UHGV virus genome: UHGV-1366603
Strand: one strand, 5' to 3'
DNA from: a virus
DNA: 64,000 nt
Every line of letters starts with the position of its first letter. Position 1 is the first letter of the stretch. The notes under the pieces are model-generated. The model was not told the DNA's origin and did no database searches. It worked only from the letters and a program-made list of their open reading frames with translations. Positions 3,542 through 58,760 of this stretch are shown one piece after another. A program made the position numbers and the translations under genes.

Positions 3542-5380
3542 ATGGCTAAAGAGTTTAACGAAATTCCTAACAACGTAAATGCTGGCGCTGCTGGTGTAGA
3601 CCCGGCTCCGTCTTTTGGTGGTGTAGGTGCTGGTGCAGGCAGTGTGGATAACACCCACGCAGCAAATGCTTTCGGTGGTATGACTAAGAACATCTCCACT
3701 TTCGATAAAGCGTTCGGCTATATGTCCTACGTTTCTGCCGCTTCACATTTCACCGCGCTGATTGCGAAGATGGTTGAACGTAACCCGTACCTGAGCAAAT
3801 TCCGCTGCGGCGTTATCGACGGTGTGAATCCAGAAATGGGTTCTGCGGCATACGTTGCTGCGCCAGCAGATGAAAATGGCAGCCACTGGATGTATGGTAT
3901 CTTGTTCTTCGAACACGGTCAGTCTGTACGCTTCCGTGAAATCAACGGTAAAGAAACTTATTACACCCTGGCTTCTCTGTTTGGTCAGGCTGGTGTAATG
4001 GATTCTATCACCAAACAAATCTGCGAACAGCAGAACCTGCCGTCTGTGCAATTCATGGTAATGAACTGCATTCCAGATCTGGGTAAAACGCTGACTGAAG
4101 AGTGGGCTATCCAGCTGATGGGTCAGCTGACTCTGGGTATCTTTGGCCGTATTCCGGGCTACCTGGGTCAGCTGAAACTGACTCGCGGCGATCGCTTCGT
4201 TGCACAGGTAACTGCGGTAGACGAAGGTTCTCTGACTGACGTTAACGGCTCTGCACAACGTGCTGACCTGATGGTTCAGGTTGAACACACTCAGACCGGT
4301 AGCTTCGATACTAACCCGACGCTGATGTCCTCTGAACGTGTTCAGGGTTATCCGAGCGTTGCGGGTGTGGGTTACATCAACCTGCGTTATACTGGTCGCC
4401 GTGCACCTGAAAACGGTGTACAGGATTACAAACAGCTGCAAGCAGAAGTTGTTGTTTCTCTGATGGACTCTCAGTCTTCCGGGGCTATGGTACCAATCGA
4501 ACGTCAGCTGATTGAACTGGCTGCCTTCGCAGAAATCGCCGCTATCGGTGGCTGGCGTGAACGCTTCATGCACTCTCTCAACAAAACCGATCGTCGTTTC
4601 TCCCGCGTTATGGAATACGTAGAGTGGGGTGACAAACGTCCTGATCTGAGCAAAATCGATGGCAACCGCGAAGCTATCGAAGAGTGCCTGAACATGTTCG
4701 CCTACCCAGAAGCTGCGCTGGTTGTGAACCATCGTGCTGGTAACGGTATCGGTGGTCTCTCCACGATGTTCAGTGAAGTTTCCCAGGGTAACACTGGTAC
4801 ACTGTCTAACATCCTGACCATCCTGGACAACATGGCTCCGAAAGGTGCTACGGTGTTCACGCAGCGTTTCGCTGAAATGCTGAAAGTTAATACCATCACC
4901 TGCAACCACGTTGTTATCGCTGGCGTACCGACAGTTTCCGGTCAGTATTTCAGCAACAGCCAGAAACGTAGCTTCCAGGATCAGGACCTGGTGTCTGTAC
5001 TGAGCAAAGTTGGTGATAACCAACACGATGCCTACACTTACCTGTACGCGCAATCTTACTCACACCGTCAGTTCAACGCGACTGAACAGCGTTTGTACCT
5101 GCTGAAGCTGGCCGCTTCCCTGTTCGGCAGCAAACAGCCGGTCGTAACTGGCGAGTCCACCGATTTGGCAATCAACCCGAAATTCGCCAAAGCGCTGCTG
5201 GACTACGTGCGTGATAACTGCATCTTCCAAGTGAATGGTGTCACCGCAGTCAATAGCCTGGCTAATACGTTGTTCTTCAACAACGGCGGTGAAAACTTCA
5301 CTCTGTCTGGTAACGGCCCGAATTCCTTCGGCAGTGACTACAACATGTCATTCGCTTCCGGTAACTACAGCCCTATCTGA
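3542..5380 (+). CDS. abundant early protein; candidate chimallin (phage-nucleus shell protein) homolog, 612 aa
   Basis: Strong RBS (aaggataaataaaATG); codon usage heavily skewed to CTG/CGT/GGT/ACC; sits immediately upstream of the beta' N-terminal gene, as the shell gene does in phiKZ (gp54 then gp55, from memory); strong terminator downstream. Assignment is by synteny and size only. Confidence 0.55.
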   Translation: MAKEFNEIPNNVNAGAAGVDPAPSFGGVGAGAGSVDNTHAANAFGGMTKNISTFDKAFGYMSYVSAASHFTALIAKMVERNPYLSKFRCGVIDGVNPEMGSAAYVAAPADENGSHWMYGILFFEHGQSVRFREINGKETYYTLASLFGQAGVMDSITKQICEQQNLPSVQFMVMNCIPDLGKTLTEEWAIQLMGQLTLGIFGRIPGYLGQLKLTRGDRFVAQVTAVDEGSLTDVNGSAQRADLMVQVEHTQTGSFDTNPTLMSSERVQGYPSVAGVGYINLRYTGRRAPENGVQDYKQLQAEVVVSLMDSQSSGAMVPIERQLIELAAFAEIAAIGGWRERFMHSLNKTDRRFSRVMEYVEWGDKRPDLSKIDGNREAIEECLNMFAYPEAALVVNHRAGNGIGGLSTMFSEVSQGNTGTLSNILTILDNMAPKGATVFTQRFAEMLKVNTITCNHVVIAGVPTVSGQYFSNSQKRSFQDQDLVSVLSKVGDNQHDAYTYLYAQSYSHRQFNATEQRLYLLKLAASLFGSKQPVVTGESTDLAINPKFAKALLDYVRDNCIFQVNGVTAVNSLANTLFFNNGGENFTLSGNGPNSFGSDYNMSFASGNYSPI

Positions 5381-44398: not shown

Positions 44399-45040
44399 AT
44401 GACACGTTACAATTTAGCCGACTTCTGCGATTGTGCCTTTTCTGTTGAAGGTGACAAACTTGTAATGGCTGCGCCAAACGCAAGAGTTTTATCGTTGTAT
44501 CAAGCCGAAGTTATTGCAATTTCGATTTGGTTGGCAAGGGCTATAGACGGCGGCTGTAAGGACCTTGATAAAGAAGTGTTGAAAGTCGGTCGTCGTGAAT
44601 TTGTGTATAAAGCAGAAATCCAGAACCGTTTACCAAAGACCTTTTTAAGCAGCTTGCTTAAAGATGTCAACACCCCAGTTGTCAGCCGAACATTTGACGG
44701 GGTGAAATATTACTCTTTTGAAGATTCGCACGTTGCTATCTGTGAAGGTGAGAATAAGTTTTTTACGACCGTTATCTACTTTCGTATTGCTGAACCTACG
44801 AAAGAAGAACTGGTTTGCAATACTGCGAACGATGTGGCCGTGATGCGTATGGACGATATCACCAGTGAACTATCTGGATTAAATGACATACCGCGTATTG
44901 TGGAGCGAGTCTTGGAAGGAGACGATTACTTTAAGTTGCTTCCGCTGGTAGCAAGCGAAGAAACAGAACAGGAAAGCGCTTTCATTCAGGTTAACCTTAC
45001 CGCTGCACAGGCGGTGGATCGTTTCTTCGAAGCTTTATAA
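44399..45040 (+). CDS. hypothetical protein
   Basis: taggagaa RBS; terminator downstream. Confidence 0.8.
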   Translation: MTRYNLADFCDCAFSVEGDKLVMAAPNARVLSLYQAEVIAISIWLARAIDGGCKDLDKEVLKVGRREFVYKAEIQNRLPKTFLSSLLKDVNTPVVSRTFDGVKYYSFEDSHVAICEGENKFFTTVIYFRIAEPTKEELVCNTANDVAVMRMDDITSELSGLNDIPRIVERVLEGDDYFKLLPLVASEETEQESAFIQVNLTAAQAVDRFFEAL

Positions 45041-49721: not shown

Positions 49722-50261
49722 GTGTCAGTGAAACGTAGTGCAGCGTTTATGCTGTTCCATAAGTGGGTAGCATGGCGTGTCCCTGAATGGACAACCATCA
49801 CCCAGTATATGTCGCAAGAACACGGATTGTTCTTGCCGGATGACGAAAAGAAAGCACGAGCGATTTTGTTGAACAAGAAAACGGTGTATATGCGGCCATT
49901 TGAAGTGGCGGTGTATGCTGAGACCGGTGCTGCGTTAGATGTTCATGATCCGAACGACGGTATTATCGTTTACGGGTATATCATGGAACACCTGGCAGAT
50001 TGGTTACATTACATGCAAGAACCTCACCTGACGACGCGTAAAGTGCCGATAGAAGGACTACGTCAGTTCAACGCCTTAGCATGTAAACTCTTTCCTGTTG
50101 CTAACCGTTACGGTTACTTTAAGAAACCGGAAGTGACGATGGCGACGTCGGTACAAGCGTTATTTGGAGAGGTGCGTTTAGAAACGCAGCAACACCGTTT
50201 TAACGATACGATAATGCGACGTATAGAAGCGATTTATCGTAAAAGGGGAGGTATACTGTAA
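49722..50261 (+). CDS. hypothetical protein
   Basis: GTG start with gaggga RBS. Confidence 0.7.
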   Translation: MSVKRSAAFMLFHKWVAWRVPEWTTITQYMSQEHGLFLPDDEKKARAILLNKKTVYMRPFEVAVYAETGAALDVHDPNDGIIVYGYIMEHLADWLHYMQEPHLTTRKVPIEGLRQFNALACKLFPVANRYGYFKKPEVTMATSVQALFGEVRLETQQHRFNDTIMRRIEAIYRKRGGIL

Positions 50262-51580
50262 TGTCGTTTGGTCGGTTACAGAACATAGCAAACGTGCACA
50301 TTGCACAAGCGGCGGGATTACCGGCCATCGAATACGTACCTATCATTACGGTACGTGGTACAGTTATCAGCGTATTTAAAACGTTGTCGATAATCCATGC
50401 CAGTAACTTCGCACAGGACTTAACGACCATCACCCATCTTACCGTGATGATACCGTTGAGCCAACAGCGTGTGTTAACGTCCTCCGCAGACGGGGATTTG
50501 TCCGTGAAGATCTTAATGCGGACGATGAACAAGAAAACCGTTGCGAAACTCGACTATCGGGGTATCGTCGTGAACAACCACGATCCCGATATGGAATCGC
50601 CCACGATGTTCTTAGGTGAGTCTGACCAGAAAGCGTTAGCGGTCGTCACCCTGGAACTGATGGACGAGTCAATGTGGTTCTTACGTTGCCGTCAGGTCGG
50701 TGGGATTTATCACGAGACAGATGGCCTTAGCGTTGTTCGTGCGCTGCTGGCAGATACGTTACCTACCGGTGATGCGCCAGAAGGTCAGTTGGTGGGCGTG
50801 GAATACGAGGAAGAGGAGCAACAACCGTATCGGGATATTTTGATTCCTGACTCGGAAAGTTTCCTGTCTGTGTTCGATTACCTTCAGAATCGTTACGGGG
50901 TTTATAGCCAAGGATTGGGGGTGTTCCTTTACAAACACCGTTGGTATATTTTCCAACCTTGGGACTCTAAGAAGTTTTCATCAGCGAAGAATAAGCTGGT
51001 GATTATAAACCTACCGAAAGAGAAAGCAGCGTATCTGAATAAGACCTGCCACATTGACGGTGATGTGATTTACCTGATTTGTGGGGGTGATGTCCACACC
51101 TTCGAAGATAAAGACTCCTTAGCGCTAAACCAAGGTACCGGTTATCGTGTGGGGTCTATCCGTGCGTTGGATGGTCGTGCGTCCTCGTTCTCGTCAGGCG
51201 ACGTTTCTGCTACAACGTCTGATTCGTTCGTCTCAGCGGCTGACCCGACGCAATATCCAGGCGGCGTAGTTAACGCACCAATTGACCCGAACCAACACTT
51301 CTCGGACACAGATAAACCGCAACGGTCTAAGTTAGCGGCGGCGAAAGGGACGTTAACCGCAACAACCTGGAACGCTTCAACGTATGGCTTACTCCGTCCG
51401 GGGATGGCAGTAAAATACATTTATGCGAATAACTATGGTGTATACACGCGTTACGGAACATTAGTTGCAGAAGTTTTCCAAGGTGCAATTGATGGCGGTT
51501 CAGCGGCTTCACCACGGTTTAATACCATTAGTCAGTTGACGTTGTGGCTGACTAATGAAAATTTTACATCCACAACGTAA
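50261..51580 (+). CDS. hypothetical protein, 439 aa
   Basis: TAATG overlap with the upstream gene; aaaggggagg RBS. Confidence 0.8.
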   Translation: MSFGRLQNIANVHIAQAAGLPAIEYVPIITVRGTVISVFKTLSIIHASNFAQDLTTITHLTVMIPLSQQRVLTSSADGDLSVKILMRTMNKKTVAKLDYRGIVVNNHDPDMESPTMFLGESDQKALAVVTLELMDESMWFLRCRQVGGIYHETDGLSVVRALLADTLPTGDAPEGQLVGVEYEEEEQQPYRDILIPDSESFLSVFDYLQNRYGVYSQGLGVFLYKHRWYIFQPWDSKKFSSAKNKLVIINLPKEKAAYLNKTCHIDGDVIYLICGGDVHTFEDKDSLALNQGTGYRVGSIRALDGRASSFSSGDVSATTSDSFVSAADPTQYPGGVVNAPIDPNQHFSDTDKPQRSKLAAAKGTLTATTWNASTYGLLRPGMAVKYIYANNYGVYTRYGTLVAEVFQGAIDGGSAASPRFNTISQLTLWLTNENFTSTT

Positions 51581-51612
51581 GTTATGTCGACAGCAACCTA
51601 AAGGATTTGTTA

Positions 51613-52413
51613 ATGAGCAATTTACTTACTTTCCGCATGTCTGGTCAAACGTTAATGCAGATTGACGAGTACGAAAAAGAACATTTCGCTAAACCGTCCA
51701 AACTGTTAGAACGTTGCTTAAAGGTTATTCCAGGCGGCGAGCATTGTCAGCTAGATTTCGTCATGGCGTCTTCTGCTGACAAAACGGTCTCTGTTATCTA
51801 CACGGTTGACGGAGTACAGGGCCATCGCTTATTACCGATTGAAGAAAAAGGTTCTTTGGGTAATTTGTTGTTCTTGCACGCAATCACGACAGCGGTAGTG
51901 ACGGGTGCACTGGAAGCACAGTACGGTTTCGCGTATTGCTATTTCTACGCACAGAAACTGGCGAATGCGGTAGTTCCAGGGGAGCCGGAAACGTATCCGA
52001 AGTATATCGAACGTTTGCTTCCGACACACTTTGCTGAGTCTGACGACTATGAGTTCAATGCTTTCCGTTTCACGATGATTGGCGAAGCACGCGATCCTGA
52101 AAACACCATCGCGTTACGTGCTGTTGTTCGTTACGCGGTAATTTCGTCTGACAGCGGAATGGCAAGCAACTTCAACGAAGTGTTCCCGGTTATGCAACTA
52201 GGTCCGTATATCACGTTTAACGCGTACGTACCGTTTACTTGTCAGTTAATCGGCCCGCAGGATAACGATTCTATCCTCCCGATTACTGAAGAGAAAGGTC
52301 TGCATATTCGTGACGCCGTAGAAGTCATCAACGATAAACGTTTTACGATCTCATCGAAAAGCGGCATTGCTGATGAAGAACTTGCGGTCGTGAACAAAAT
52401 GCAAGTGATGTAA
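51613..52413 (+). CDS. hypothetical protein
   Basis: Track start TTG 51607; ATG 51613 with aaagga RBS preferred. Confidence 0.8.
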   Translation: MSNLLTFRMSGQTLMQIDEYEKEHFAKPSKLLERCLKVIPGGEHCQLDFVMASSADKTVSVIYTVDGVQGHRLLPIEEKGSLGNLLFLHAITTAVVTGALEAQYGFAYCYFYAQKLANAVVPGEPETYPKYIERLLPTHFAESDDYEFNAFRFTMIGEARDPENTIALRAVVRYAVISSDSGMASNFNEVFPVMQLGPYITFNAYVPFTCQLIGPQDNDSILPITEEKGLHIRDAVEVINDKRFTISSKSGIADEELAVVNKMQVM

Positions 52414-52419
52414 AATTAT

Positions 52420-52457
52420 CCCGTTACCTTTGTGGGTAACGGGATGTCCTTTTATTT
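52420..52457 (+). terminator. intrinsic terminator
   Basis: cccgttacc-tttgtg-ggtaacggg hairpin with a T-run (ccttttattt) shortly downstream. Confidence 0.7.
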
Positions 52458-52576
52458 ACTCGTAAACGCGTCTTAGACGTTGTTTTACACCTTAAGACGA
52501 TTAATGGTGTTTAAAAAATAAAAGGTCGTCAGAATGCGATACAGCGCGTTTTAGAGGGTGTTTTAATTAAAATATT

Positions 52577-52592
52577 TTCAGATATATATTAC
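52577..52592 (+). promoter_or_regulatory. promoter-like motif TTCAGATATATATTAC
   Basis: Contains TATATTAC, which I recall as the phiKZ early-promoter core; about 58 nt upstream of the small gene at 52650. Confidence 0.5.
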
Positions 52593-52649
52593 TTAGGTGA
52601 GAGAATTACGTAATACTCATTTATCGAATACCTAATTAGGAGCTATATC

Positions 52650-52793
52650 ATGATTTCTGTAAAACACAAAAAAGCTATCTTCGCTGTTGTTATCGCTGTT
52701 GTTCTGGGTTGCCTGTACCTGGATATCGACAAAGGCTACGACACTTGCATCGACAACGGTAACTCCGTTGCGCAGTGCACTGGTCGTGGTTAA
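52650..52793 (+). CDS. small hydrophobic protein, 47 aa (not in ORF track, below its length cutoff)
   Basis: TAGGAG RBS; MISVKHKKAIFAVVIAVVLGCLYLDIDKGYDTCIDNGNSVAQCTGRG; host-optimal codons; own promoter-like motif and terminator. Confidence 0.6.
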   Translation: MISVKHKKAIFAVVIAVVLGCLYLDIDKGYDTCIDNGNSVAQCTGRG

Positions 52794-52800
52794 TGTATAA

Positions 52801-52828
52801 GGCACCTTCGGGTGCCCTTAATTTTTTA
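52801..52828 (+). terminator. intrinsic terminator
   Basis: ggcacc-ttcg-ggtgcc hairpin followed by a T6 run. Confidence 0.85.
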
Positions 52829-52847
52829 TCTATTGGAGTATTTTTAA

Positions 52848-53663
52848 ATGAAAACTATCAAAGACTATTTTCCGACCGGCATCAGTAGCGACCATTTCGT
52901 ACCAGCGGATTCGATGGAAATCATCAGTAAGTCCAGTAGCGGTGAGTTTGTTATTTACCTAACTAATGTAGGAGGTAGACCGAGTTTCATTCTCCTCGAG
53001 CCTAAAGAAGTAAGTGTCTGTACGGTTGCTGTAAATGTTTCTTGCAGCCTTAGCTGGTTGAAGTCCAGATTGCTACGCTTGCTCGTGGTTAATACTGACC
53101 CAGTAGTACGCTTAGAGCGATTAAAAGCAATGAATGAAGTTATCCTGGGTTTTCTGCTACATCCTATTTACGGTAACCCTAAAGTCGCAGAAGCAATACA
53201 AAACGTACAGTTGGTGGAGTGGAGTGATATTGACTACGAGCGTGCCTCCGAATTTGTATTACAGGCAGACGACAACACCGGTGTGTTCTCACGAACGTTA
53301 GATAATGTAACGGTAACTGCACGTGTGTTGTTTGGTTTACAGCGCGTAGAGTTTGAATTGAAACACGTCTACGTGAGCAATAAACCGGAGATGGTGGAAA
53401 CGTTGATTCGTGCGTTCGCATACCCGTTAGATGGTGAATGGGAACAGCAGATTAATGATGCGTTAGGAGCCATGCATTTCCTGGCTGAAACGTTAAGGAA
53501 GGATGAGAAATTGAAAGGTCGTGTTTATCCAGAACACGATTTTGTTTGTGAAGAATGTGGAGCACAGTATCAAATCCGTGTTCCTTTAACCGGCCTAACA
53601 TTCCCGCAAGCCAACGTGCAATGTAAGGAATGTGGCCATGTTCAATACGTAGCGATTAAATAA
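52848..53663 (+). CDS. hypothetical protein with C-terminal zinc-ribbon-like CxxC...CxxC
   Basis: ttggag RBS; CEECGAQYQ...CKECGHVQY near the C-terminus. Confidence 0.8.
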   Translation: MKTIKDYFPTGISSDHFVPADSMEIISKSSSGEFVIYLTNVGGRPSFILLEPKEVSVCTVAVNVSCSLSWLKSRLLRLLVVNTDPVVRLERLKAMNEVILGFLLHPIYGNPKVAEAIQNVQLVEWSDIDYERASEFVLQADDNTGVFSRTLDNVTVTARVLFGLQRVEFELKHVYVSNKPEMVETLIRAFAYPLDGEWEQQINDALGAMHFLAETLRKDEKLKGRVYPEHDFVCEECGAQYQIRVPLTGLTFPQANVQCKECGHVQYVAIK

Positions 53664-53669
53664 AAGCAA

Positions 53670-53712
53670 CCCCTAATCCCGAAAAGGATTAGGGGTACAC
53701 TTTATTTATTTT
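53670..53712 (+). terminator. intrinsic terminator
   Basis: 10-bp stem cccctaatcc/ggattagggg followed by a T-rich run. Confidence 0.85.
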
Positions 53713-53737
53713 CGCTCTTAAAAAAGGAAATTGTGTC

Positions 53738-53893
53738 ATGAAGAATGTTAATGCAATGCTTAACCAGTCATTTGTTAACCAACAGCGTTTTCAGGAACGC
53801 TTAGCACAACTTAAAACACAACACAGACCGCCACAACAAAGAGTGGTTAAGAGCAAGTTTGGCGAAATGGTTTTCGAAAGAAAATCTTTCTAA
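53738..53893 (+). CDS. hypothetical small protein, 51 aa
   Basis: aaaaaggaaa RBS; ORF MKNVNAMLNQSF...; its own terminator follows. Confidence 0.5.
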   Translation: MKNVNAMLNQSFVNQQRFQERLAQLKTQHRPPQQRVVKSKFGEMVFERKSF

Positions 53894-53902
53894 TAACCGT
53901 TA

Positions 53903-53929
53903 AGGGGGTGTGACAGCACCCCCTTTTTT
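53903..53929 (+). terminator. intrinsic terminator
   Basis: gggggtg-tgacag-caccccc hairpin followed by a T6 run. Confidence 0.8.
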
Positions 53930-54052
53930 ACGCTTTAACTTTTCCAAAGAGAAGTTAAAGCAAGGTACGCTGCCACAACAGCGTACCTTTTACAACACCA
54001 TTACGTTTCCGTAATGGATTTCTTTAATCACCCTACAAAGAGGGCTTATACC

Positions 54053-54226
54053 ATGAACAATGGTTACTACTTTACTGACAAAATGCTTGCAGAACAGTAT
54101 GCAGCAAAAACCAATTTACAGCAACGTATCTACGAGTATAGTCAACTCGGCGTGAATAAACGATTAAAACCATCCACCAACCGTTTCACACAGATAATCA
54201 CTGAAAAAAGGAGCGAACGCTACTAA
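54053..54226 (+). CDS. hypothetical small protein, 57 aa
   Basis: Track ORF 54014..54226; ATG 54053 with gaggg RBS preferred. Confidence 0.5.
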   Translation: MNNGYYFTDKMLAEQYAAKTNLQQRIYEYSQLGVNKRLKPSTNRFTQIITEKRSERY

Positions 54227-54234
54227 CTAATACA

Positions 54235-54254
54235 GGGGGTGCACTACCACCCCC
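54235..54254 (+). terminator. putative terminator hairpin (weak T-tract)
   Basis: gggggtg-cactac-caccccc hairpin; a T10 run lies about 45 nt further downstream. Confidence 0.35.
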
Positions 54255-54361
54255 TACTTGGTTCAGTAGTTGACTTTCGTTCATAATTATTAGATGTCTT
54301 GTTTTTTTTTTGCTTTTCGGGACGCATAAGGGGTCGTAGGGGGAGCCGAAGCTCCCCAGAC

Positions 54362-55924
54362 TCAAAAGAGTTCGTCTCCCATACCGCCTGTAAAGACGTT
54401 AATCGACGATGCAGTTACTGTTTCTTCTTTATCGCAATCCCAAGGCAGAATGCCAACTTCACGGAAAGGTATTACTGTATAATGGTAAGCTTCTTTAGTA
54501 TCGATAATTGTACGGTGTTTACCACGTTGTACTTCTAAGTAACTATGTCCATTGACAACACGTTTGTTAAAATACATCTCACCGTCAGCTTCGTTATCCA
54601 AGCTGGAGCAGTTATCGTAAAGACCGCGACCTGGTAAGTTCTTGCAGAAACTTGCTGGGTCTAACGCTTTTAATTTTTTGCCTTCTGGTGAGATTTGGTG
54701 TGGTGCTAACAAGAAACCACGGTTACGTACTACCTGGATGTTTCGAGCGATACGATAAATTTCTTTAATGTCGCTACCGGCAATCCCGTTACCGTGACCT
54801 GCTTTACTGATAGTCCCGAAATAGTCTCCGCGAATCCCAGCTACATGATAACCTCGACGCTTTAAGTCCAGTATTAAGTCGTTTAAGTAGTGTATTTTAA
54901 AATCTGAGTTTGTGTGTTTCTGAAAGATGTATTCCCAACCGTTAGCCCGCATTTTACTACAGAGGTAGTCCGACATTTTTGTGTTGTGCAAAGCTTTCTC
55001 TTCGTCGGTAGCGTTTTCAGAAGCAACCATAACCGGTGCTTCACCTTCAAAATGACCGTAGAGCGCTTGGTACGCATACGCCAAGTTAACGTCCAGTTCG
55101 TTCTCTAAACTTAAATCGAGAATAACCGGCTGCAAATCCCCTTTAACGTTTTCCATTACTTTTTCAGGTGTATTGAATACCGGAATACTGATAGACAATA
55201 ACAGACTAAAAAGTGATTTACAGTTAAAAGGCAGTGCAGGCATTAGCCAAAGTTCTTCGGTAATCCCTTTGTTACAACCCAGCATCTGGTTAATGGCTTT
55301 CCATCCGGTACGTAAACCGTTACCCGCCGCTTTCTTACTGATGGAGTCGAACACGTGTACGAACGGTGCACGGTTATCCGTAATAAGTTCGCCTACAAGT
55401 GAGGGAATCTTATTATGAGAGCGTTCACTGAACGTAGAGAGACTATCTCTGAGGTCGTTGAGCGCCGTTTGTAAATCAACGCGCGTTTCGGTTCCGTTCA
55501 GTGCGCCTAACGTACGACCTAATTTTTGTTTCAGTTGTACGCCTTGAATAGCTTGACGTAATTGGAAGTAGTATTGTGCTACTTGACGGTTAAGATGCTC
55601 GATGCGTGCTTCTGGTTCTTCTGGAATATCATCTTCCAGGAATTTGGTAATCGTATCGTATAGAGGACGTATTTGCGTAGTGGCCAATTTCAAACGTTTC
55701 ATGACGTTTGTGTGGTCGTAAGGCATACCGCCGTCTATGATGGATGTGATGATATCCTTGATTTCGACGAGGGCGGCACGTTCGTCACCTTCCTCTACGT
55801 AATCAGGAAGCTTAGCCTCTAACAGCACTTTTCTTATGACCTCATGATCCTTCTCAGGGTCGGTCAACAGACTTTCAGTGTATAGTGTGGCTAATGCGGT
55901 TATCAACATCATTTTGTTATTCAT
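54362..55924 (-). CDS. hypothetical protein, 520 aa
   Basis: Minus-strand ORF with AAGGA RBS and a hydrophobic N-terminus (MNNKMMLITALATLY). Confidence 0.8.
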   Translation of the reverse strand: MNNKMMLITALATLYTESLLTDPEKDHEVIRKVLLEAKLPDYVEEGDERAALVEIKDIITSIIDGGMPYDHTNVMKRLKLATTQIRPLYDTITKFLEDDIPEEPEARIEHLNRQVAQYYFQLRQAIQGVQLKQKLGRTLGALNGTETRVDLQTALNDLRDSLSTFSERSHNKIPSLVGELITDNRAPFVHVFDSISKKAAGNGLRTGWKAINQMLGCNKGITEELWLMPALPFNCKSLFSLLLSISIPVFNTPEKVMENVKGDLQPVILDLSLENELDVNLAYAYQALYGHFEGEAPVMVASENATDEEKALHNTKMSDYLCSKMRANGWEYIFQKHTNSDFKIHYLNDLILDLKRRGYHVAGIRGDYFGTISKAGHGNGIAGSDIKEIYRIARNIQVVRNRGFLLAPHQISPEGKKLKALDPASFCKNLPGRGLYDNCSSLDNEADGEMYFNKRVVNGHSYLEVQRGKHRTIIDTKEAYHYTVIPFREVGILPWDCDKEETVTASSINVFTGGMGDELF

Positions 55925-55937
55925 GGAGCATCCTTAA

Positions 55938-56462
55938 ATGCAAATTCGTTTTAGTCCACCGTGGGAAGTTCAGCCTAACATAGATAAAGGCGCTGCCGTT
56001 AAAAGTGTAGAATTGCTCCAGGCAGGGTTCTTTAACTGGTTATATGACTGTCCGAATGGTTTCAGTTCTATCATTATACCTGAAGTAAGTCGTTCTGCTA
56101 TTTATAAAGCGTTGATGGCTCCGCCTGTGCTTCCAGGTAAATATTATGATCAGGTGTTACGTCTGGTCGAATCAGGCGAAAAGGTTTCCCTTGACGATTT
56201 ATATGGGGAAACAATTCCTTGTCGCTTACGCTGGGTCTTTACCCAACGTGGTGATACGATTGTGGCGTCATTTGCAGAAGCGAAGTCCGGTTCGGGTTTT
56301 TCTTCGGGTGAAGACCACGCTGCGAAAAAGATGTTCTGCGCAGAACTTTTTAAATATATGCGTACCAAGACTCGCGTCGTGGATGACTGCTTCAGTACCT
56401 CAACGCAGTTTGCCGCTAACGAAGTGCTGACGCAATTATACGCATGTCATTTATCTCATTAA
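55938..56462 (+). CDS. hypothetical protein
   Basis: GGAG RBS inside the 13-nt divergent spacer. Confidence 0.8.
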   Translation: MQIRFSPPWEVQPNIDKGAAVKSVELLQAGFFNWLYDCPNGFSSIIIPEVSRSAIYKALMAPPVLPGKYYDQVLRLVESGEKVSLDDLYGETIPCRLRWVFTQRGDTIVASFAEAKSGSGFSSGEDHAAKKMFCAELFKYMRTKTRVVDDCFSTSTQFAANEVLTQLYACHLSH

Positions 56463-56474
56463 GGTATTAAACAA

Positions 56475-58760
56475 ATGAAAGATACCCGAATCTCTAATTT
56501 AGAGAAACTCGTAGAAGCCGGTACTAGTCTGGCCCAAAACGTCATCGGCAACAACACCGCCAGCGAAATGTGGAATACGATTGTTGCAGGCGAGTCCGTA
56601 CGCAGCAACGCAAAAGTGTTTGGCGCTCTGCGTGACGAAGCATCACAGCACTATGCCAACGCTTTTGGTGGCAAGAAAATGTCTCATGCTGCGACTGTCG
56701 CCTCCGCAATGATTCTGGGCGCAGCTAACCACGGTAAAGACCTGCAAGAACGTGTTGCCCAGGAATACGCTAAGCCGGAATTCCACACCAAGTATAACCT
56801 GGATATTGGTATCCCTGGTGCGCAAGGTGGTGACTGGGGTCGTGAGCGCATGGTTGTTGCTCAGGAATACTACAGCAACAAAGACTACGACAAAAACCTG
56901 GGCCTGACCTGGACCCTGAACGTACGTGCTCTGGAAACTCAGTCCAAGTTTGCTGAAACACTGTTCCCGACCATTACCGTCGACACCAACGATGTTGGTA
57001 TTACCGTACGTACTAAAGTGACTACCGTTTCTCGCGGTATCATGAACGCGCTGCTGAGCAAAGACGTCGTTGAAGATCATCGTCGTCCGCTGCACAACGC
57101 ACTGACTGACCACACCGTTCTCCAGGACGAAGCGATCAACATCGTTCCTTACGTAATGGAAACCGGTGAAAACCAGGAATACTTCGTAAGCGAAGAACTG
57201 GTTCCGAACGAAACCGTTCGCCTGGGTCGTGTACCTCCGTATCCGACTAACTACCTGAGCTTTGCAAACGACACGCTGAACCTGTTCCAGCTGTCTGCGC
57301 ATCCGGGTATCGTTCAGGAAGGTTACGAAGAAACTGATGAAATCGCACCGGGTTGTGCTCTGGGCAGCCTGCTGATTTCTGTACGTAAACCGGCCGAAGA
57401 AGCGAAAGCGGGTAAATTCATCAAACTGCACGTTCGTGACATGCAGTTCGCAACCTTCCAGCGTCCTGCTGAAGGTGACGGCCGTGAACTGGTTCTGCAA
57501 TTCCGTCGTACCGCGTTCTCTCTGAATGCGAAAACCACTGACTGGAAAGGCGACGCTATTCCGGCTCTGCAAGCACTGGGCCAGAACTCCTACACCCTGC
57601 GCTACGTTATCACCATCACCATGTCCCTGTTCACCAGCGGCCAGTTCGGTGGTAAAGTAGACATTTCCGGCCACAAACTGGAAATCGAAGGTCTGTACGA
57701 TGCAACTGGTAACAAAGTTGATACCAAGTCTGGTACCGGTAAAGTTATCCTGGATGGCCTGAAACTTGAACTGATGGGCTGGCGCTTCGATGGTACTCGT
57801 ACCAACGAAAACCGTCGTACCCAGGGTCTTCTGCTTGACCCAATTTGGGAACAGGAAAACTACAAACTGCAATACGGTTCTCCGATTCTGACCAAGTCTC
57901 CGGTTGGTGTTGAATACGACGACACTGAACGTCTGGACGACCTGATCTCTGCGGTGAACATCCGTAACGAACAGCTGGCTATTACTCAGACGCTGTCTTA
58001 CACCGAAGCAGTACGTAACGCAGCCGCTGCGATGATCACTCCGTGGGACAAACCGGCTATCCGTGGTCTGGGCCGTCACTGGGTTGCTCCGTGGTTCAAA
58101 GAGTCTGACTACAAAGTCGATGAAGTTGTTCAGTCTCTGGATACCAAAGAAGCGCTGATCAACGCTCGTCAGGGTCTGTTGCAGCGTATCGGTAGCCAGG
58201 TAACTCAGGCTATCCAGGATTCTCGTTTCATTCCTGCACTGCGCCTGCTGACCGCTGATCCGGACATTCTGCCGAAAGTTATTATCGCAACTGACGAACC
58301 GACTGCATCTATGCTGCTGCTGGTTCAGGGCGACCAACGTCTGCTGGGCGACCGTTATGAATACGAAGTCGTTACCACCAACGATGACCGCTGGCGCATC
58401 TACAACGCAGCTGACGATTCCTGGACTCGTCGTCTGCAATGGTTCCTGAAAGTTCCGACTGCGGACGATGGTTCCTACTGCGTACTGAACTGGGGTAACC
58501 ACTTCTGGTCTCCGATCATGGTTACCAACATCAACATCCAGCGTAACGGTTCTACTTCTAAAGAACTGGCTGTACAGCCGCGTAACGCGCATATCTGCCA
58601 CTGCCCGATCACTGGTCTGATTTGGGTTAAAGGCATCACCAAACTGGTTGAAGAAAAACTGGCTTACAACGTTTCTGTAGAACAGAACGGCCAGAAACAA
58701 ACCGACGGTGGTGTAGCAGGTAATGTTGCTGGCGACGGTAAAGACAAAGCTGGTAAATAA
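56475..58760 (+). CDS. abundant virion protein; major capsid protein candidate, 761 aa
   Basis: taaggtattaaacaa RBS; very strong host-optimal codon bias; size close to jumbo-phage major capsid proteins; strongest terminator in the window follows. Product call is inference. Confidence 0.5.
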   Translation: MKDTRISNLEKLVEAGTSLAQNVIGNNTASEMWNTIVAGESVRSNAKVFGALRDEASQHYANAFGGKKMSHAATVASAMILGAANHGKDLQERVAQEYAKPEFHTKYNLDIGIPGAQGGDWGRERMVVAQEYYSNKDYDKNLGLTWTLNVRALETQSKFAETLFPTITVDTNDVGITVRTKVTTVSRGIMNALLSKDVVEDHRRPLHNALTDHTVLQDEAINIVPYVMETGENQEYFVSEELVPNETVRLGRVPPYPTNYLSFANDTLNLFQLSAHPGIVQEGYEETDEIAPGCALGSLLISVRKPAEEAKAGKFIKLHVRDMQFATFQRPAEGDGRELVLQFRRTAFSLNAKTTDWKGDAIPALQALGQNSYTLRYVITITMSLFTSGQFGGKVDISGHKLEIEGLYDATGNKVDTKSGTGKVILDGLKLELMGWRFDGTRTNENRRTQGLLLDPIWEQENYKLQYGSPILTKSPVGVEYDDTERLDDLISAVNIRNEQLAITQTLSYTEAVRNAAAAMITPWDKPAIRGLGRHWVAPWFKESDYKVDEVVQSLDTKEALINARQGLLQRIGSQVTQAIQDSRFIPALRLLTADPDILPKVIIATDEPTASMLLLVQGDQRLLGDRYEYEVVTTNDDRWRIYNAADDSWTRRLQWFLKVPTADDGSYCVLNWGNHFWSPIMVTNINIQRNGSTSKELAVQPRNAHICHCPITGLIWVKGITKLVEEKLAYNVSVEQNGQKQTDGGVAGNVAGDGKDKAGK

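What the first reader, a model, noticed from the sequence alone, without database searches (positions are those of the whole stretch)
52577..52828. Self-contained cassette for a 47-aa hydrophobic protein missed by the ORF track
A promoter-like motif (52577), a strong TAGGAG RBS, an ORF 52650..52793 (MISVKHKKAIFAVVIAVVLGCLYLDIDKGYDTCIDNGNSVAQCTGRG) and a terminator (52801..52828) form a complete unit. The ORF is below the track's length cutoff. Codon usage is host-optimal, suggesting high expression. The protein has one predicted membrane-spanning helix followed by a Cys-containing tail. Candidates for such a product include a host-takeover, superinfection-exclusion or membrane-targeting peptide.
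Basis: seen in the sequence. Interest (0 to 1): 0.45.

Follow-up and report, generated by a model that had tools for sequence, protein, structure and literature searches.

The report
Early jumbo-phage gene for membrane mini-protein
This is a real, conserved 47-codon gene of an SPN3US-like jumbo phage that probably makes a very abundant small inner-membrane protein early in infection; relatives already annotate it as a hypothetical protein and its function is still unknown.

Summary
At 52576-52829 (+) there is a promoter motif, a TAGGAG ribosome-binding site, a 47-codon ORF and a stable hairpin followed by a T-run.

The window is a jumbo phage of the SPN3US / phiEaH2 / Machinavirus group. Its closest public record (97.8% nt) is a 222-kb "plasmid" of Enterobacter ludwigii.

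- **Promoter:** it is not sigma-70-like. It belongs to the phiKZ-type TATATTAC class attributed to the virion RNA polymerase, and it sits at the same place in all eight relatives examined.
- **Coding status:** the ORF matches PHROG 8574 (unknown function) over its full length and has 33 homolog clusters of 45-51 aa. dN/dS is 0.13 in the C-terminal 20 codons, and only this frame is open in every relative.
- **Expression signal:** its E. coli-type codon adaptation index is 0.90, against a mean of 0.35 and a maximum of 0.71 for the window's genes.
- **Predicted protein:** basic N-terminus, one membrane helix, then an almost invariant tail (Y..C..NGNS...CTGRG). AlphaFold models the tail as a helix-turn-helix that a disulfide could staple.
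- **Function:** untested. My best guess, about 0.3, is an early envelope-acting factor such as superinfection exclusion.

The gene is SPN3US gp66 and is already annotated as a hypothetical protein in relatives. It is a new member of a catalogued but uncharacterised family.

The parts
52417..52446 (.). Bidirectional terminator-like hairpin that ends the upstream 268-aa gene (51607-52413) and so isolates the cassette from upstream transcription
   Evidence: 13-bp stem on the + strand and 11-bp stem on the - strand, each followed by a T-run. A hairpin is seen at the equivalent place in the six relatives whose aligned stretch reaches the end of the upstream gene.
52520..52563 (+). Conserved upstream block (…CAGAATGCGATACAGCGCGTTTTAGAGGGTG), role unknown; possibly a regulator-binding site
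   Evidence: Conserved in six of the seven aligned relatives just upstream of the promoter; the SPAsTU and pEa_SNUABM_6 rows align poorly there. Forms a direct repeat with 52467-87 and an inverted repeat with 52459-70. It is 93% identical to non-coding DNA of an IncX1 plasmid. It is not found at the other early-promoter sites.
52576..52600 (+). phiKZ-type early promoter attributed to the virion RNA polymerase, TTTCAGATATATATTACTTAGGTGA. The predicted transcription start is G52599, 6 nt after TATATTAC
   Evidence: 0 chance matches expected. Nearly invariant at the same position in 8 relatives. 10 co-oriented intergenic copies in SPN3US and 4 in the window. Matches published phiKZ and 201phi2-1 predicted early-promoter strings (PMC7058600; PMC7598289; PMC5312081). 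No sigma-70-like site is found here.
52599..52649 (+). Predicted 51-nt 5' untranslated region, with a weak 5' palindrome (GAGAATTACGTAATACTC) and the RBS TAGGAG at 52637-52642
   Evidence: In this window the 5' hairpin is only -1.5 kcal/mol and is not significant. The leader-plus-RBS module recurs at other early promoters in SPN3US.
52650..52793 (+). Coding sequence for a 47-aa protein: basic N-terminus, one membrane helix (about residues 9-24), and a conserved C-terminal Cys33…Cys43 cap
   Evidence: PHROG 8574, E = 3e-23, full length. 33 homolog clusters. dN/dS 0.27 overall and 0.13 in the C-terminal 20 codons. Only this frame is open in all 16 distinct DNA versions. CAI 0.90. AlphaFold2 pLDDT 85.7. 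Hydropathy and charge bias.
52801..52829 (+). Intrinsic-terminator-like hairpin with a UUCG tetraloop, followed by a U-run, 8 nt after the stop codon
   Evidence: -11.6 kcal/mol, z = -3.5. An equivalent hairpin with a different stem sequence (GGTAGCC…GGCTACC) sits at the same place in Huxley and pEa_SNUABM_6. It is absent in SPN3US, ChrisDB and phiEaH2, where the next gene abuts or overlaps.

Best explanation
This is a genuine early gene of an SPN3US-like, RNA-polymerase-carrying jumbo phage.

Inferred by analogy with phiKZ and AR9: the injected virion RNA polymerase starts transcription at about G52599 from a near-consensus early promoter, and most transcripts stop at the UUCG hairpin and U-run. 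This would give a short mRNA of about 230 nt.

Shown or strongly inferred: the strong RBS and the almost fully optimal codons mean this mRNA should be translated very efficiently.

Predicted: the 47-aa product inserts in the inner membrane with its basic N-terminus in the cytoplasm. It then displays a tail of about 22 residues in the periplasm, with the pattern (D/G)Y(N/D)xCxxNGNSxxxCTGRG. The tail folds as a helix-turn-short-helix, probably stapled by a Cys33-Cys43 disulfide.

Inferred function: the cap is nearly invariant while the membrane helix drifts, so the cap most likely binds one specific partner at the periplasmic face. That partner would have to be conserved across these phages or their enterobacterial hosts.

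My committed guess is that the protein works like the T4 early proteins Imm and Spackle. It would quickly alter the envelope of the infected cell to block entry, or the tail-associated cell-wall attack, of later-arriving phages.

Confidence by layer:
- Gene, promoter class and high expression: about 0.85.
- Topology and disulfide cap: about 0.65.
- Exclusion or envelope-protection function: about 0.3.
For: - **Real gene.** Full-length PHROG 8574 match and 33 homolog clusters of 45-51 aa. dN/dS is 0.13 in the C-terminal part and 0.41 in the membrane part, with synonymous sites near saturation. Invariant Gly37, Ser39 and Thr44 are each encoded by 3-4 different codons. The antisense ORF is broken in 7 of 16 versions. 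The gene is syntenic in all fetched relatives, between the gp65 homolog and the DnaB helicase.
- **Promoter class.**, with reviews read. In the window and in SPN3US the ORF is the first gene after this promoter.
- **High expression.** CAI 0.90 exceeds that of every long gene in the window, including the 761-aa gene at 56475-58760 that I take to be the major capsid protein from its position (0.71). Homologs also score well above the window's gene average, at 0.54-0.70.
- **Terminator.**
- **Topology.** All 33 family members have an apolar segment of 13-22 residues. Their N-termini carry a net +2 to +4 charge with no acidic residue.
- **Fold.** AlphaFold2 gives pLDDT 85.7, with a helix at residues 4-35, a turn at NGNS and a helix at 40-44.
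- **Functional analogy.** T4 Spackle is an early periplasmic inhibitor of the tail lysozyme (PMC7677548, abstract). T4 Imm binds the tape-measure protein to block genome entry (bioRxiv 10.64898/2026.03.06.709160).
Against: - There is no experimental evidence of transcription, translation, localisation or phenotype for any family member. No paper mentioning SPN3US gp66 was found.
- There is no sequence or fold similarity to Imm, Spackle or any characterised protein.
- The periplasmic part is only about 22 residues, much smaller than known exclusion proteins.
- Early timing is inferred from promoter similarity alone. No transcriptome was found for this phage group.
- About half of the family carries an extra Cys at position 20/21 in a relaxed lipobox context. 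That could mean a different, lipid-anchored mature form.
- tblastn for the peptide found no match in either Cronobacter phage and matched fewer Erwinia phage records than the search with the neighbouring gene did. The gene is therefore not universal.
Confidence: 0.35

Rival explanations
1. Host-takeover or anti-defence peptide. In this reading the periplasmic cap binds and inhibits a host envelope protein instead of blocking other phages. Candidate targets include a cell-wall or division enzyme, a protease, a transporter, or the membrane effector or sensor of a defence system.
For: The anatomy fits equally well: early promoter, high expression, and an invariant cap on a drifting anchor. The family occurs in phages of Salmonella, Escherichia, Erwinia, Proteus and probably Enterobacter. 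That distribution fits a target conserved across Enterobacterales. The surrounding early operon is a variable accessory region.
Against: No similarity to any known inhibitor or anti-defence protein. No target can be named. Nothing distinguishes this reading from exclusion in silico.
Confidence: 0.22
2. Lipoprotein. In this reading residues 1-20 are a signal peptide cut by signal peptidase II at Cys21. This would release a lipidated mature peptide of about 27 residues that acts at the outer or inner membrane, for example by masking a receptor as T5 Llp or the Cor proteins do.
For: 16 of 33 family members have Cys at position 20/21, nearly always preceded by Ala or Gly, and 14 of 33 fit a relaxed pattern I wrote from memory after PROSITE PS51257. 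UniRef names the Erwinia phage Kwan homolog 'Lipoprotein'. From my own knowledge, T5 Llp is also a small, early, Cys-containing lipoprotein.
Against: 0 of 33 fit the strict lipobox [LVI][ASTVI][GAS]C. The Cys is missing in half of the family, including SPN3US, phiEaH2 and Huxley, while the rest of the protein is conserved. The apolar stretch continues past the Cys, and AlphaFold2 models one unbroken helix through it. Residue +2 is Leu or Ser, which would send the peptide to the outer membrane, whereas Cys-less homologs must stay in the inner membrane.
Confidence: 0.1
3. Lysis-related or membrane-permeabilising peptide: a holin, antiholin, spanin-like component, or a Hok/Gef-like depolarising toxin.
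For: It is a small single-helix membrane peptide with an Ala/Gly-rich helix face. There is a weak match to an Rz-like spanin PHROG (phrog_4297, E = 0.042). From my own knowledge, its size and layout resemble Hok/Gef.
Against: The spanin match covers only the membrane helix and is not significant. 47 aa cannot span the periplasm. There is no Pfam Hok/Gef match. The gene lies behind an early-type promoter and about 70 kb from the endolysin in SPN3US. Massive early expression of a depolarising peptide would harm the infection.
Confidence: 0.1
4. Membrane-side assembly or compartment factor. In this reading an abundant inner-membrane peptide helps to remodel the membrane for the early infection vesicle, or for capsid assembly at the inner membrane.
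For: Related nucleus-forming phages build a lipid vesicle at entry and assemble capsids on the inner membrane (bioRxiv 10.1101/2024.03.24.586471; PMC12908238). The gene lies among head genes, about 3.7 kb upstream of the likely major capsid gene. Its expression signals are those of a stoichiometric, structural-level product.
Against: The conserved part faces the periplasm, not the cytoplasm where vesicles and capsids form. Homologs were found only in the SPN3US-like group, not across nucleus-forming phages. gp66 is not mentioned in the two SPN3US head and essential-gene papers searched.
Confidence: 0.06
5. Secreted signalling or precursor peptide. In this reading the N-terminal helix is a cleaved signal and the invariant C-terminus (…CTGRG) is released as a diffusible peptide, arbitrium-like or RiPP-like.
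For: The layout resembles a signal sequence followed by a short conserved C-terminus. Residues at about positions 18 and 20 are usually small, which could fit a signal-peptidase site. From my own knowledge, arbitrium peptides often end in …RGA.
Against: The C-terminus is invariant across genera, the opposite of a phage-specific code. No receptor or modifying-enzyme genes lie nearby. These are lytic phages of Gram-negative hosts. The apolar segment is of membrane-helix length, 13-22 residues and mostly 18-19.
Confidence: 0.03

Closest known systems
PHROG 8574, which includes SPN3US gp66 (YP_009153360.1), ChrisDB gp82 (YP_009292771.1), phiEaH2 YP_007237903.1, and Enterobacter ludwigii 'plasmid' WP_262880969.1
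   Same: Homologous over the full length: 100% aa to the Enterobacter record and 43-60% to the other homolog clusters. Same size, same layout, same invariant C..G.S...CTGR tail, and the same position in the genome behind the same promoter.
   Different: The window's version has the most extreme codon bias of those measured (0.90 against 0.54-0.70). It also has a Gly instead of the usual Asp before Tyr30, a Cys at position 21, and its own terminator. No member of the family has a known function.
phiKZ-type early promoters attributed to the virion RNA polymerase (phiKZ TATATTAC; 201phi2-1 TTTRARR_BTATATTACDWHDGTG; AR9 AAATATATATTAT-6N-G)
   Same: Same AT-rich core, the same flanking TTTCAR…GTG, a conserved G 6 nt downstream, and many co-oriented intergenic copies per genome.
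   Different: The extended consensus in this phage group is longer, at about 28 nt that are nearly invariant. It has not been mapped experimentally in any SPN3US-like phage that I could find.
T4 Spackle (Sp) and Imm superinfection-exclusion proteins
   Same: Early phage products that act at the inner membrane or periplasm of the infected cell (PMC7677548; bioRxiv 10.64898/2026.03.06.709160). The predicted location and inferred timing are the same here.
   Different: No sequence or fold relationship was found. From my own knowledge, Sp is 97 aa and Imm 83 aa, whereas this protein is 47 aa with only about 22 periplasmic residues. Activity is untested.
T5 Llp and the Cor lipoproteins (receptor-masking lipoproteins made by the phage)
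   Same: Small envelope-targeted phage proteins containing Cys. Half of this family has a relaxed lipobox.
   Different: The strict lipobox is absent in all members and the Cys is absent in half of them. There is no sequence similarity in the Pfam or NCBIfam scans.
Hok/Gef type I toxins (Pfam PF01848)
   Same: About 50 aa, a basic N-terminus, one membrane helix, and a periplasmic tail containing Cys (from my own knowledge).
   Different: No Pfam match at E <= 1. The tail motif is unrelated. The gene is expressed from a phage early promoter, not from an antisense-controlled locus.

Membership tests
PHROG 8574 (phage protein family of unknown function) | Significant full-length match to the family profile | tested here: met
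   E = 3.4e-23, residues 1-47 aligned to profile positions 1-47 of 47.
PHROG 8574 / SPN3US gp66 orthologs | Conserved genome position: the early operon between the gp65 homolog and the DnaB helicase | tested here: met
   The mapping to gp66 was checked against the major capsid protein being gp75.
phiKZ-type early promoter (virion RNA polymerase) | Highly conserved AT-rich core (TATATTAC-like) with conserved flanks | tested here: met
   TTTCAGATATATATTACTTAGGTGA compared with published strings. Nearly invariant in 8 relatives.
phiKZ-type early promoter (virion RNA polymerase) | Repeated in the genome, intergenic, and co-oriented with downstream genes | tested here: met
   10 sites in SPN3US and 4 in the window, all on the + strand. 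Nearly all lie 45-90 nt upstream of an ATG, most with a recognisable RBS.
phiKZ-type early promoter (virion RNA polymerase) | Transcription starts about 6 nt downstream, early in infection, and independently of host RNA polymerase | not testable with these tools
   This needs 5'-end mapping and time-course RNA-seq. No such data set for SPN3US-like phages was found.
Intrinsic (factor-independent) terminator | GC-rich hairpin immediately followed by a U-run | tested here: met
   6-bp stem with 5 GC pairs and a UUCG loop, then CUUAAUUUUUUAU. -11.6 kcal/mol, 0 of 200 shuffles as stable. Whether the phage polymerases stop there is untested.
Bacterial lipoprotein (signal peptidase II substrate) | Lipobox [LVI][ASTVI][GAS]C after a basic n-region and a hydrophobic h-region | tested here: not met
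   0 of 33 family members match the strict pattern; the window has V-L-G-C. 14 of 33 match a relaxed pattern I wrote from memory after PROSITE PS51257.
Bacterial lipoprotein (signal peptidase II substrate) | The lipid-modified Cys is conserved across the family | tested here: not met
   Cys at position 20/21 is present in 16 of 33 members. It is absent in SPN3US, phiEaH2 and Huxley.
T4 Imm / Spackle superinfection-exclusion proteins | Sequence or structural homology | tested here: not met
   No such family in the Pfam scan at E <= 1, no relative among PDB sequences, and BFVD fold hits only to its own family.
T4 Imm / Spackle superinfection-exclusion proteins | Blocks secondary infection when expressed | not testable with these tools
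   This needs plating-efficiency and DNA-entry assays.
Hok/Gef type I toxin (PF01848) | Match to the Pfam model | tested here: not met
   Not listed at E <= 1.
Rz-like spanin (phrog_4297) | Significant profile match that extends beyond the membrane helix | tested here: not met
   E = 0.042, with residues 4-37 aligned to profile positions 9-42 of 130, i.e. essentially the membrane helix and its immediate flanks.

The most novel reading that the evidence does not exclude
The most strongly expressed early product of SPN3US-like jumbo phages could be a new class of entry-blocking factor. It would be a 22-residue, disulfide-stapled periplasmic cap on a membrane anchor that binds a conserved part of the jumbo-phage injection machinery, or of the host envelope. 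It would seal the infected cell against later phages within minutes of infection.
Probability: 0.2. Interest if true: 0.55.

Novelty: new member of a known kind. Interest (0 to 1): 0.33.

Why it matters
Very little is known about what nucleus-forming jumbo phages do to the cell envelope in the first minutes of infection. This gene combines a near-consensus early promoter, its own terminator and the highest codon adaptation in 64 kb. That marks its product as probably one of the most abundant early proteins of a whole phage group that infects Salmonella, E. coli, Erwinia and Enterobacter.

It is tiny and easy to synthesise, and its invariant 15-residue motif is a ready handle for finding its partner. 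If it proves to be an exclusion or envelope-protection factor, it would matter for designing phage cocktails with these therapeutic candidates.

As it stands, it is an uncharacterised member of an already catalogued family.

Tried and rejected
- **Host sigma-70 promoter:** the scan finds none at 52560-52650. The motif belongs to the phage early class instead.
- **Chance ORF or RNA element:** rejected by the dN/dS result, the synonymous variation at invariant residues and the frame-specific openness. Rfam gives only a sub-threshold chance hit on the other strand.
- **Antisense 57-aa ORF (52632-52805):** it is interrupted in 7 of 16 relatives.
- **Known families:** Pfam, NCBIfam, PADLOC and PDB sequence searches gave nothing meaningful. 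The weak CRF-receptor and melan-A hits are noise. The BFVD fold search returned only family members.
- **Wider homologs:** an exhaustive HMMER search of 1.84 billion representatives gave 7 hits. All are family members except P0033, a 381-aa protein with four similar Cys-loop repeats. Pfam gave nothing significant for P0033.
- **5' stabilising hairpin:** it is visible at several SPN3US early transcripts, but in this window it is weak (-1.5 kcal/mol) and not significant.
- **Literature:** nothing was found for SPN3US gp66, the accession, the PHROG number or the CTGRG motif. The SPN3US infection proteomics paper (PMC6384053) is not held.
- **Divergent homolog P0032:** it sits on short contigs whose neighbouring genes show no similarity to the window or to SPN3US, so its context is uninformative.

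Full report
**1. The observation**

- Promoter motif TTTCAGATATATATTACTTAGGTGA at 52576-52600.
- TAGGAG at 52637-52642, 7 nt before an ATG.
- A 47-codon ORF at 52650-52793.
- A GGCACC-UUCG-GGUGCC hairpin at 52801-52816, followed by CUUAAUUUUUUAU.

The hairpin folds at -11.6 kcal/mol and none of 200 shuffles is as stable. The 21-nt promoter core is not expected by chance in 64 kb.

**2. What the window is**

The neighbouring genes are 57-65% identical at protein level to those of Salmonella phage SPN3US, Erwinia phages phiEaH2 and Asesino, and the Machinavirus group. The best DNA identity in the phage collection is about 77% over part of the region.

Near-identical genomes exist as IMG/VR contigs of 150-225 kb. 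Another is a circular 222,441-bp 'plasmid' of Enterobacter ludwigii 51A:C, at 97.8% nt identity. This points to Enterobacter as the host.

The genome belongs to the jumbo-phage group that carries its own multisubunit RNA polymerases; SPN3US annotates several RNA polymerase beta-subunit genes.

**3. The promoter**

The only stretch of 52400-52900 that megablast finds in known phages is the roughly 40-bp promoter motif. It sits at the same position in all eight relatives fetched, just after the terminator of the gp65 homolog, and is nearly invariant.

A mismatch scan finds 10 copies in SPN3US and 4 in the window (3395, 3475, 44322, 52576). All are on the coding strand and intergenic, and nearly all lie 45-90 nt before an ATG, most with a recognisable RBS.

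The core matches the published predicted early promoters of phiKZ (TATATTAC) and 201phi2-1 (TTTRARR_BTATATTACDWHDGTG) (PMC7058600). Reviews state that such AT-rich motifs are the virion-polymerase early promoters, with the start site 6 nt downstream (PMC7598289; PMC5312081). By that rule the start here is G52599, giving a 51-nt leader.

No sigma-70-like site is present. The early timing is an inference from this similarity. I found no transcriptome for this phage group.

**4. The ORF is a gene**

- It matches PHROG 8574 end to end (E = 3e-23).
- Profile searches recover 33 clusters of 45-51 aa.
- Cys33, Gly37, Ser39, Cys43, Thr44, Gly45 and Arg46 are invariant. Tyr30, Asn36 and Gly47 are nearly invariant.
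- Across 16 distinct DNA versions, synonymous sites are close to saturation (pS about 0.55-0.6).
- dN/dS is 0.13 in the last 20 codons and 0.41 in the membrane part. Invariant residues use 3-4 different codons.
- Only this reading frame is open in all versions. The antisense ORF is broken in 7 of 16.
- The four near-identical metagenomic copies differ from the window only by synonymous changes.
- Homologs are annotated as hypothetical proteins in SPN3US (66th CDS, i.e. gp66), ChrisDB gp82, phiEaH2 and the Enterobacter record.

**5. Expression signals**

With E. coli weights (Sharp & Li values typed in from memory) the CAI is 0.90 and 44 of 46 scored codons are optimal. The 47 long ORFs of the window average 0.35 (sd 0.11). 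The highest is 0.71, for the 761-aa gene at 56475-58760 that I take to be the major capsid protein from its position. None of 1741 equally long windows inside those genes reaches 0.90. Homologs score 0.54-0.70.

A near-consensus promoter, a strong RBS and a terminator 8 nt after the stop all point the same way. This layout is typical of a gene whose product is wanted in much larger amounts than those of the genes behind it.

The terminator is shared, with a different stem sequence, by Huxley and pEa_SNUABM_6. In SPN3US, ChrisDB, phiEaH2, Caitlin and SPAsTU the next gene abuts or overlaps instead, and in the Erwinia phages one to three genes lie between the promoter and this gene. The 'self-contained cassette' is thus one variant of a conserved early operon.

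**6. The protein**

Every family member has 2-4 basic and no acidic residues before an apolar stretch of 13-22 residues, mostly 18-19. A tail of about 22 residues follows, with no net positive charge. By the positive-inside rule the N-terminus is cytoplasmic and the tail periplasmic.

AlphaFold2 with the 33-sequence alignment gives pLDDT 85.7. It models one helix from residue 4 to 35, a turn at NGNS, and a short helix at 40-44. This places Cys33 and Cys43 on the two arms of a hairpin, where a periplasmic disulfide could staple them. I could not measure the distance between them.

The anchor drifts while the cap is nearly frozen. That is what one expects if the cap binds a specific partner.

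**7. Lipoprotein question**

The window has V-L-G-C21, and 16 of 33 members have a Cys at this spot, almost always after Ala or Gly. 14 fit a relaxed lipobox pattern that I wrote from memory after PROSITE PS51257, and UniRef calls one homolog 'Lipoprotein'.

However, none fits the strict lipobox. The Cys is absent in half of the family, including close relatives of Cys-bearing members. The apolar stretch and the modelled helix both run straight through it. I therefore treat lipidation as a minority possibility that needs a globomycin test.

**8. Function**

No characterised relative exists. Pfam, NCBIfam, PADLOC, PDB sequences and the BFVD fold search gave nothing beyond the family itself. An exhaustive HMMER search added only a 381-aa protein with four similar Cys-loop repeats. 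The literature searches found nothing on gp66. The operon neighbours are small soluble proteins and a zinc-ribbon protein of unknown function.

From the anatomy I commit to an early envelope-acting role. Within that I favour superinfection exclusion or envelope protection in the manner of T4 Imm and Spackle (PMC7677548; bioRxiv 10.64898/2026.03.06.709160), at about 0.3. Inhibition of a host envelope or defence protein follows at about 0.2. Lysis-related roles, lipoprotein receptor masking, a membrane assembly role and a secreted signal are less likely, for the reasons given under the rival explanations.

**9. Verdict**

It is not new as an object, because it belongs to a catalogued and annotated family of unknown function.

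Its interest lies in the combination of a virion-polymerase early promoter, extreme codon adaptation and a frozen periplasmic motif. Together these make it a cheap and well-defined target for experiment in a phage group of current interest.

Noticed in passing
whole window; checked on window 50000-56000: The closest public sequence is a circular 222,441-bp 'plasmid unnamed1' of Enterobacter ludwigii 51A:C (NZ_CP134650.1), 97.8% identical over the stretch checked. It appears to be a jumbo phage genome deposited as a plasmid, which suggests Enterobacter as host and perhaps a carrier state.
   Followed up: partly
window 52520-52563: A 45-bp non-coding block just upstream of the early promoter is 93% identical to non-coding DNA of E. 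coli IncX1 plasmid pEC213_3 (NZ_CP061104.1 38248-38292), about 300 bp upstream of a stbD / relE-parE pair. The block is conserved in most related phages at this locus and recurs at SPN3US 137566 and 240059. It is not found at the other early promoters. Its role is unknown.
   Followed up: partly
window 52459-52487 and 52545-52565: There is a 21-nt direct repeat (CGCGTCTTAGACGTTGTTTTA / CGCGTTTTAGAGGGTGTTTTA, 78 bp apart) and an inverted repeat (CTCGTAAACGCG / CGCGTTTTAGAG) between the upstream terminator and the promoter. SPN3US has analogous CCCTCTAAA / TAGAGGG repeats. These are possibly operator sites.
   Followed up: no
window 3395, 3475 and 44322 (+): Three further early-promoter-like sites of a variant type (TCTCAGATAGATATTAYCTAYGTGA). 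Two lie in tandem before the highly codon-adapted gene 3542-5380 (CAI 0.64), and one lies before a gene starting near 44410.
   Followed up: no
P0033 (381-aa protein from the representative library): This membrane protein has four tandem repeats, AYNxCIGNG(A/N)SxxQC…YxAxGG(S/T)G, that resemble the family's C-terminal Cys-loop motif (E = 9e-4). This may be an independent use of the same mini-fold.
   Followed up: partly
window 52848-53663, 53738-53893, 54014-54226: The rest of the operon is as follows: a 271-aa protein with a C-terminal zinc ribbon, which I take to be the SPN3US gp70 counterpart from its size, position and shared C-terminal zinc ribbon; a 51-aa basic protein resembling the SPN3US gp71/gp72 pair; and a 70-aa ORF. 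Each is followed by its own hairpin terminator, some of them bidirectional.
   Followed up: partly
L003 (phiEaH2) 3548-3793 and 4520-4765: In phiEaH2 the same early operon carries two paralogous 81-aa proteins with several membrane helices (gp250, gp252) just before the peptide gene. A divergent relative (L026) has a signal-peptide protein there. This variable region therefore tends to collect envelope-targeted products.
   Followed up: no
L024 (SPN3US) about 165683-165760: One consensus early promoter in SPN3US is followed within about 30 nt by a UUCG-loop terminator hairpin (GGCTACCTTCGGGTAGCC plus a T-run), before any ORF. This looks like a promoter-terminator pair with almost nothing between.
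   Followed up: no
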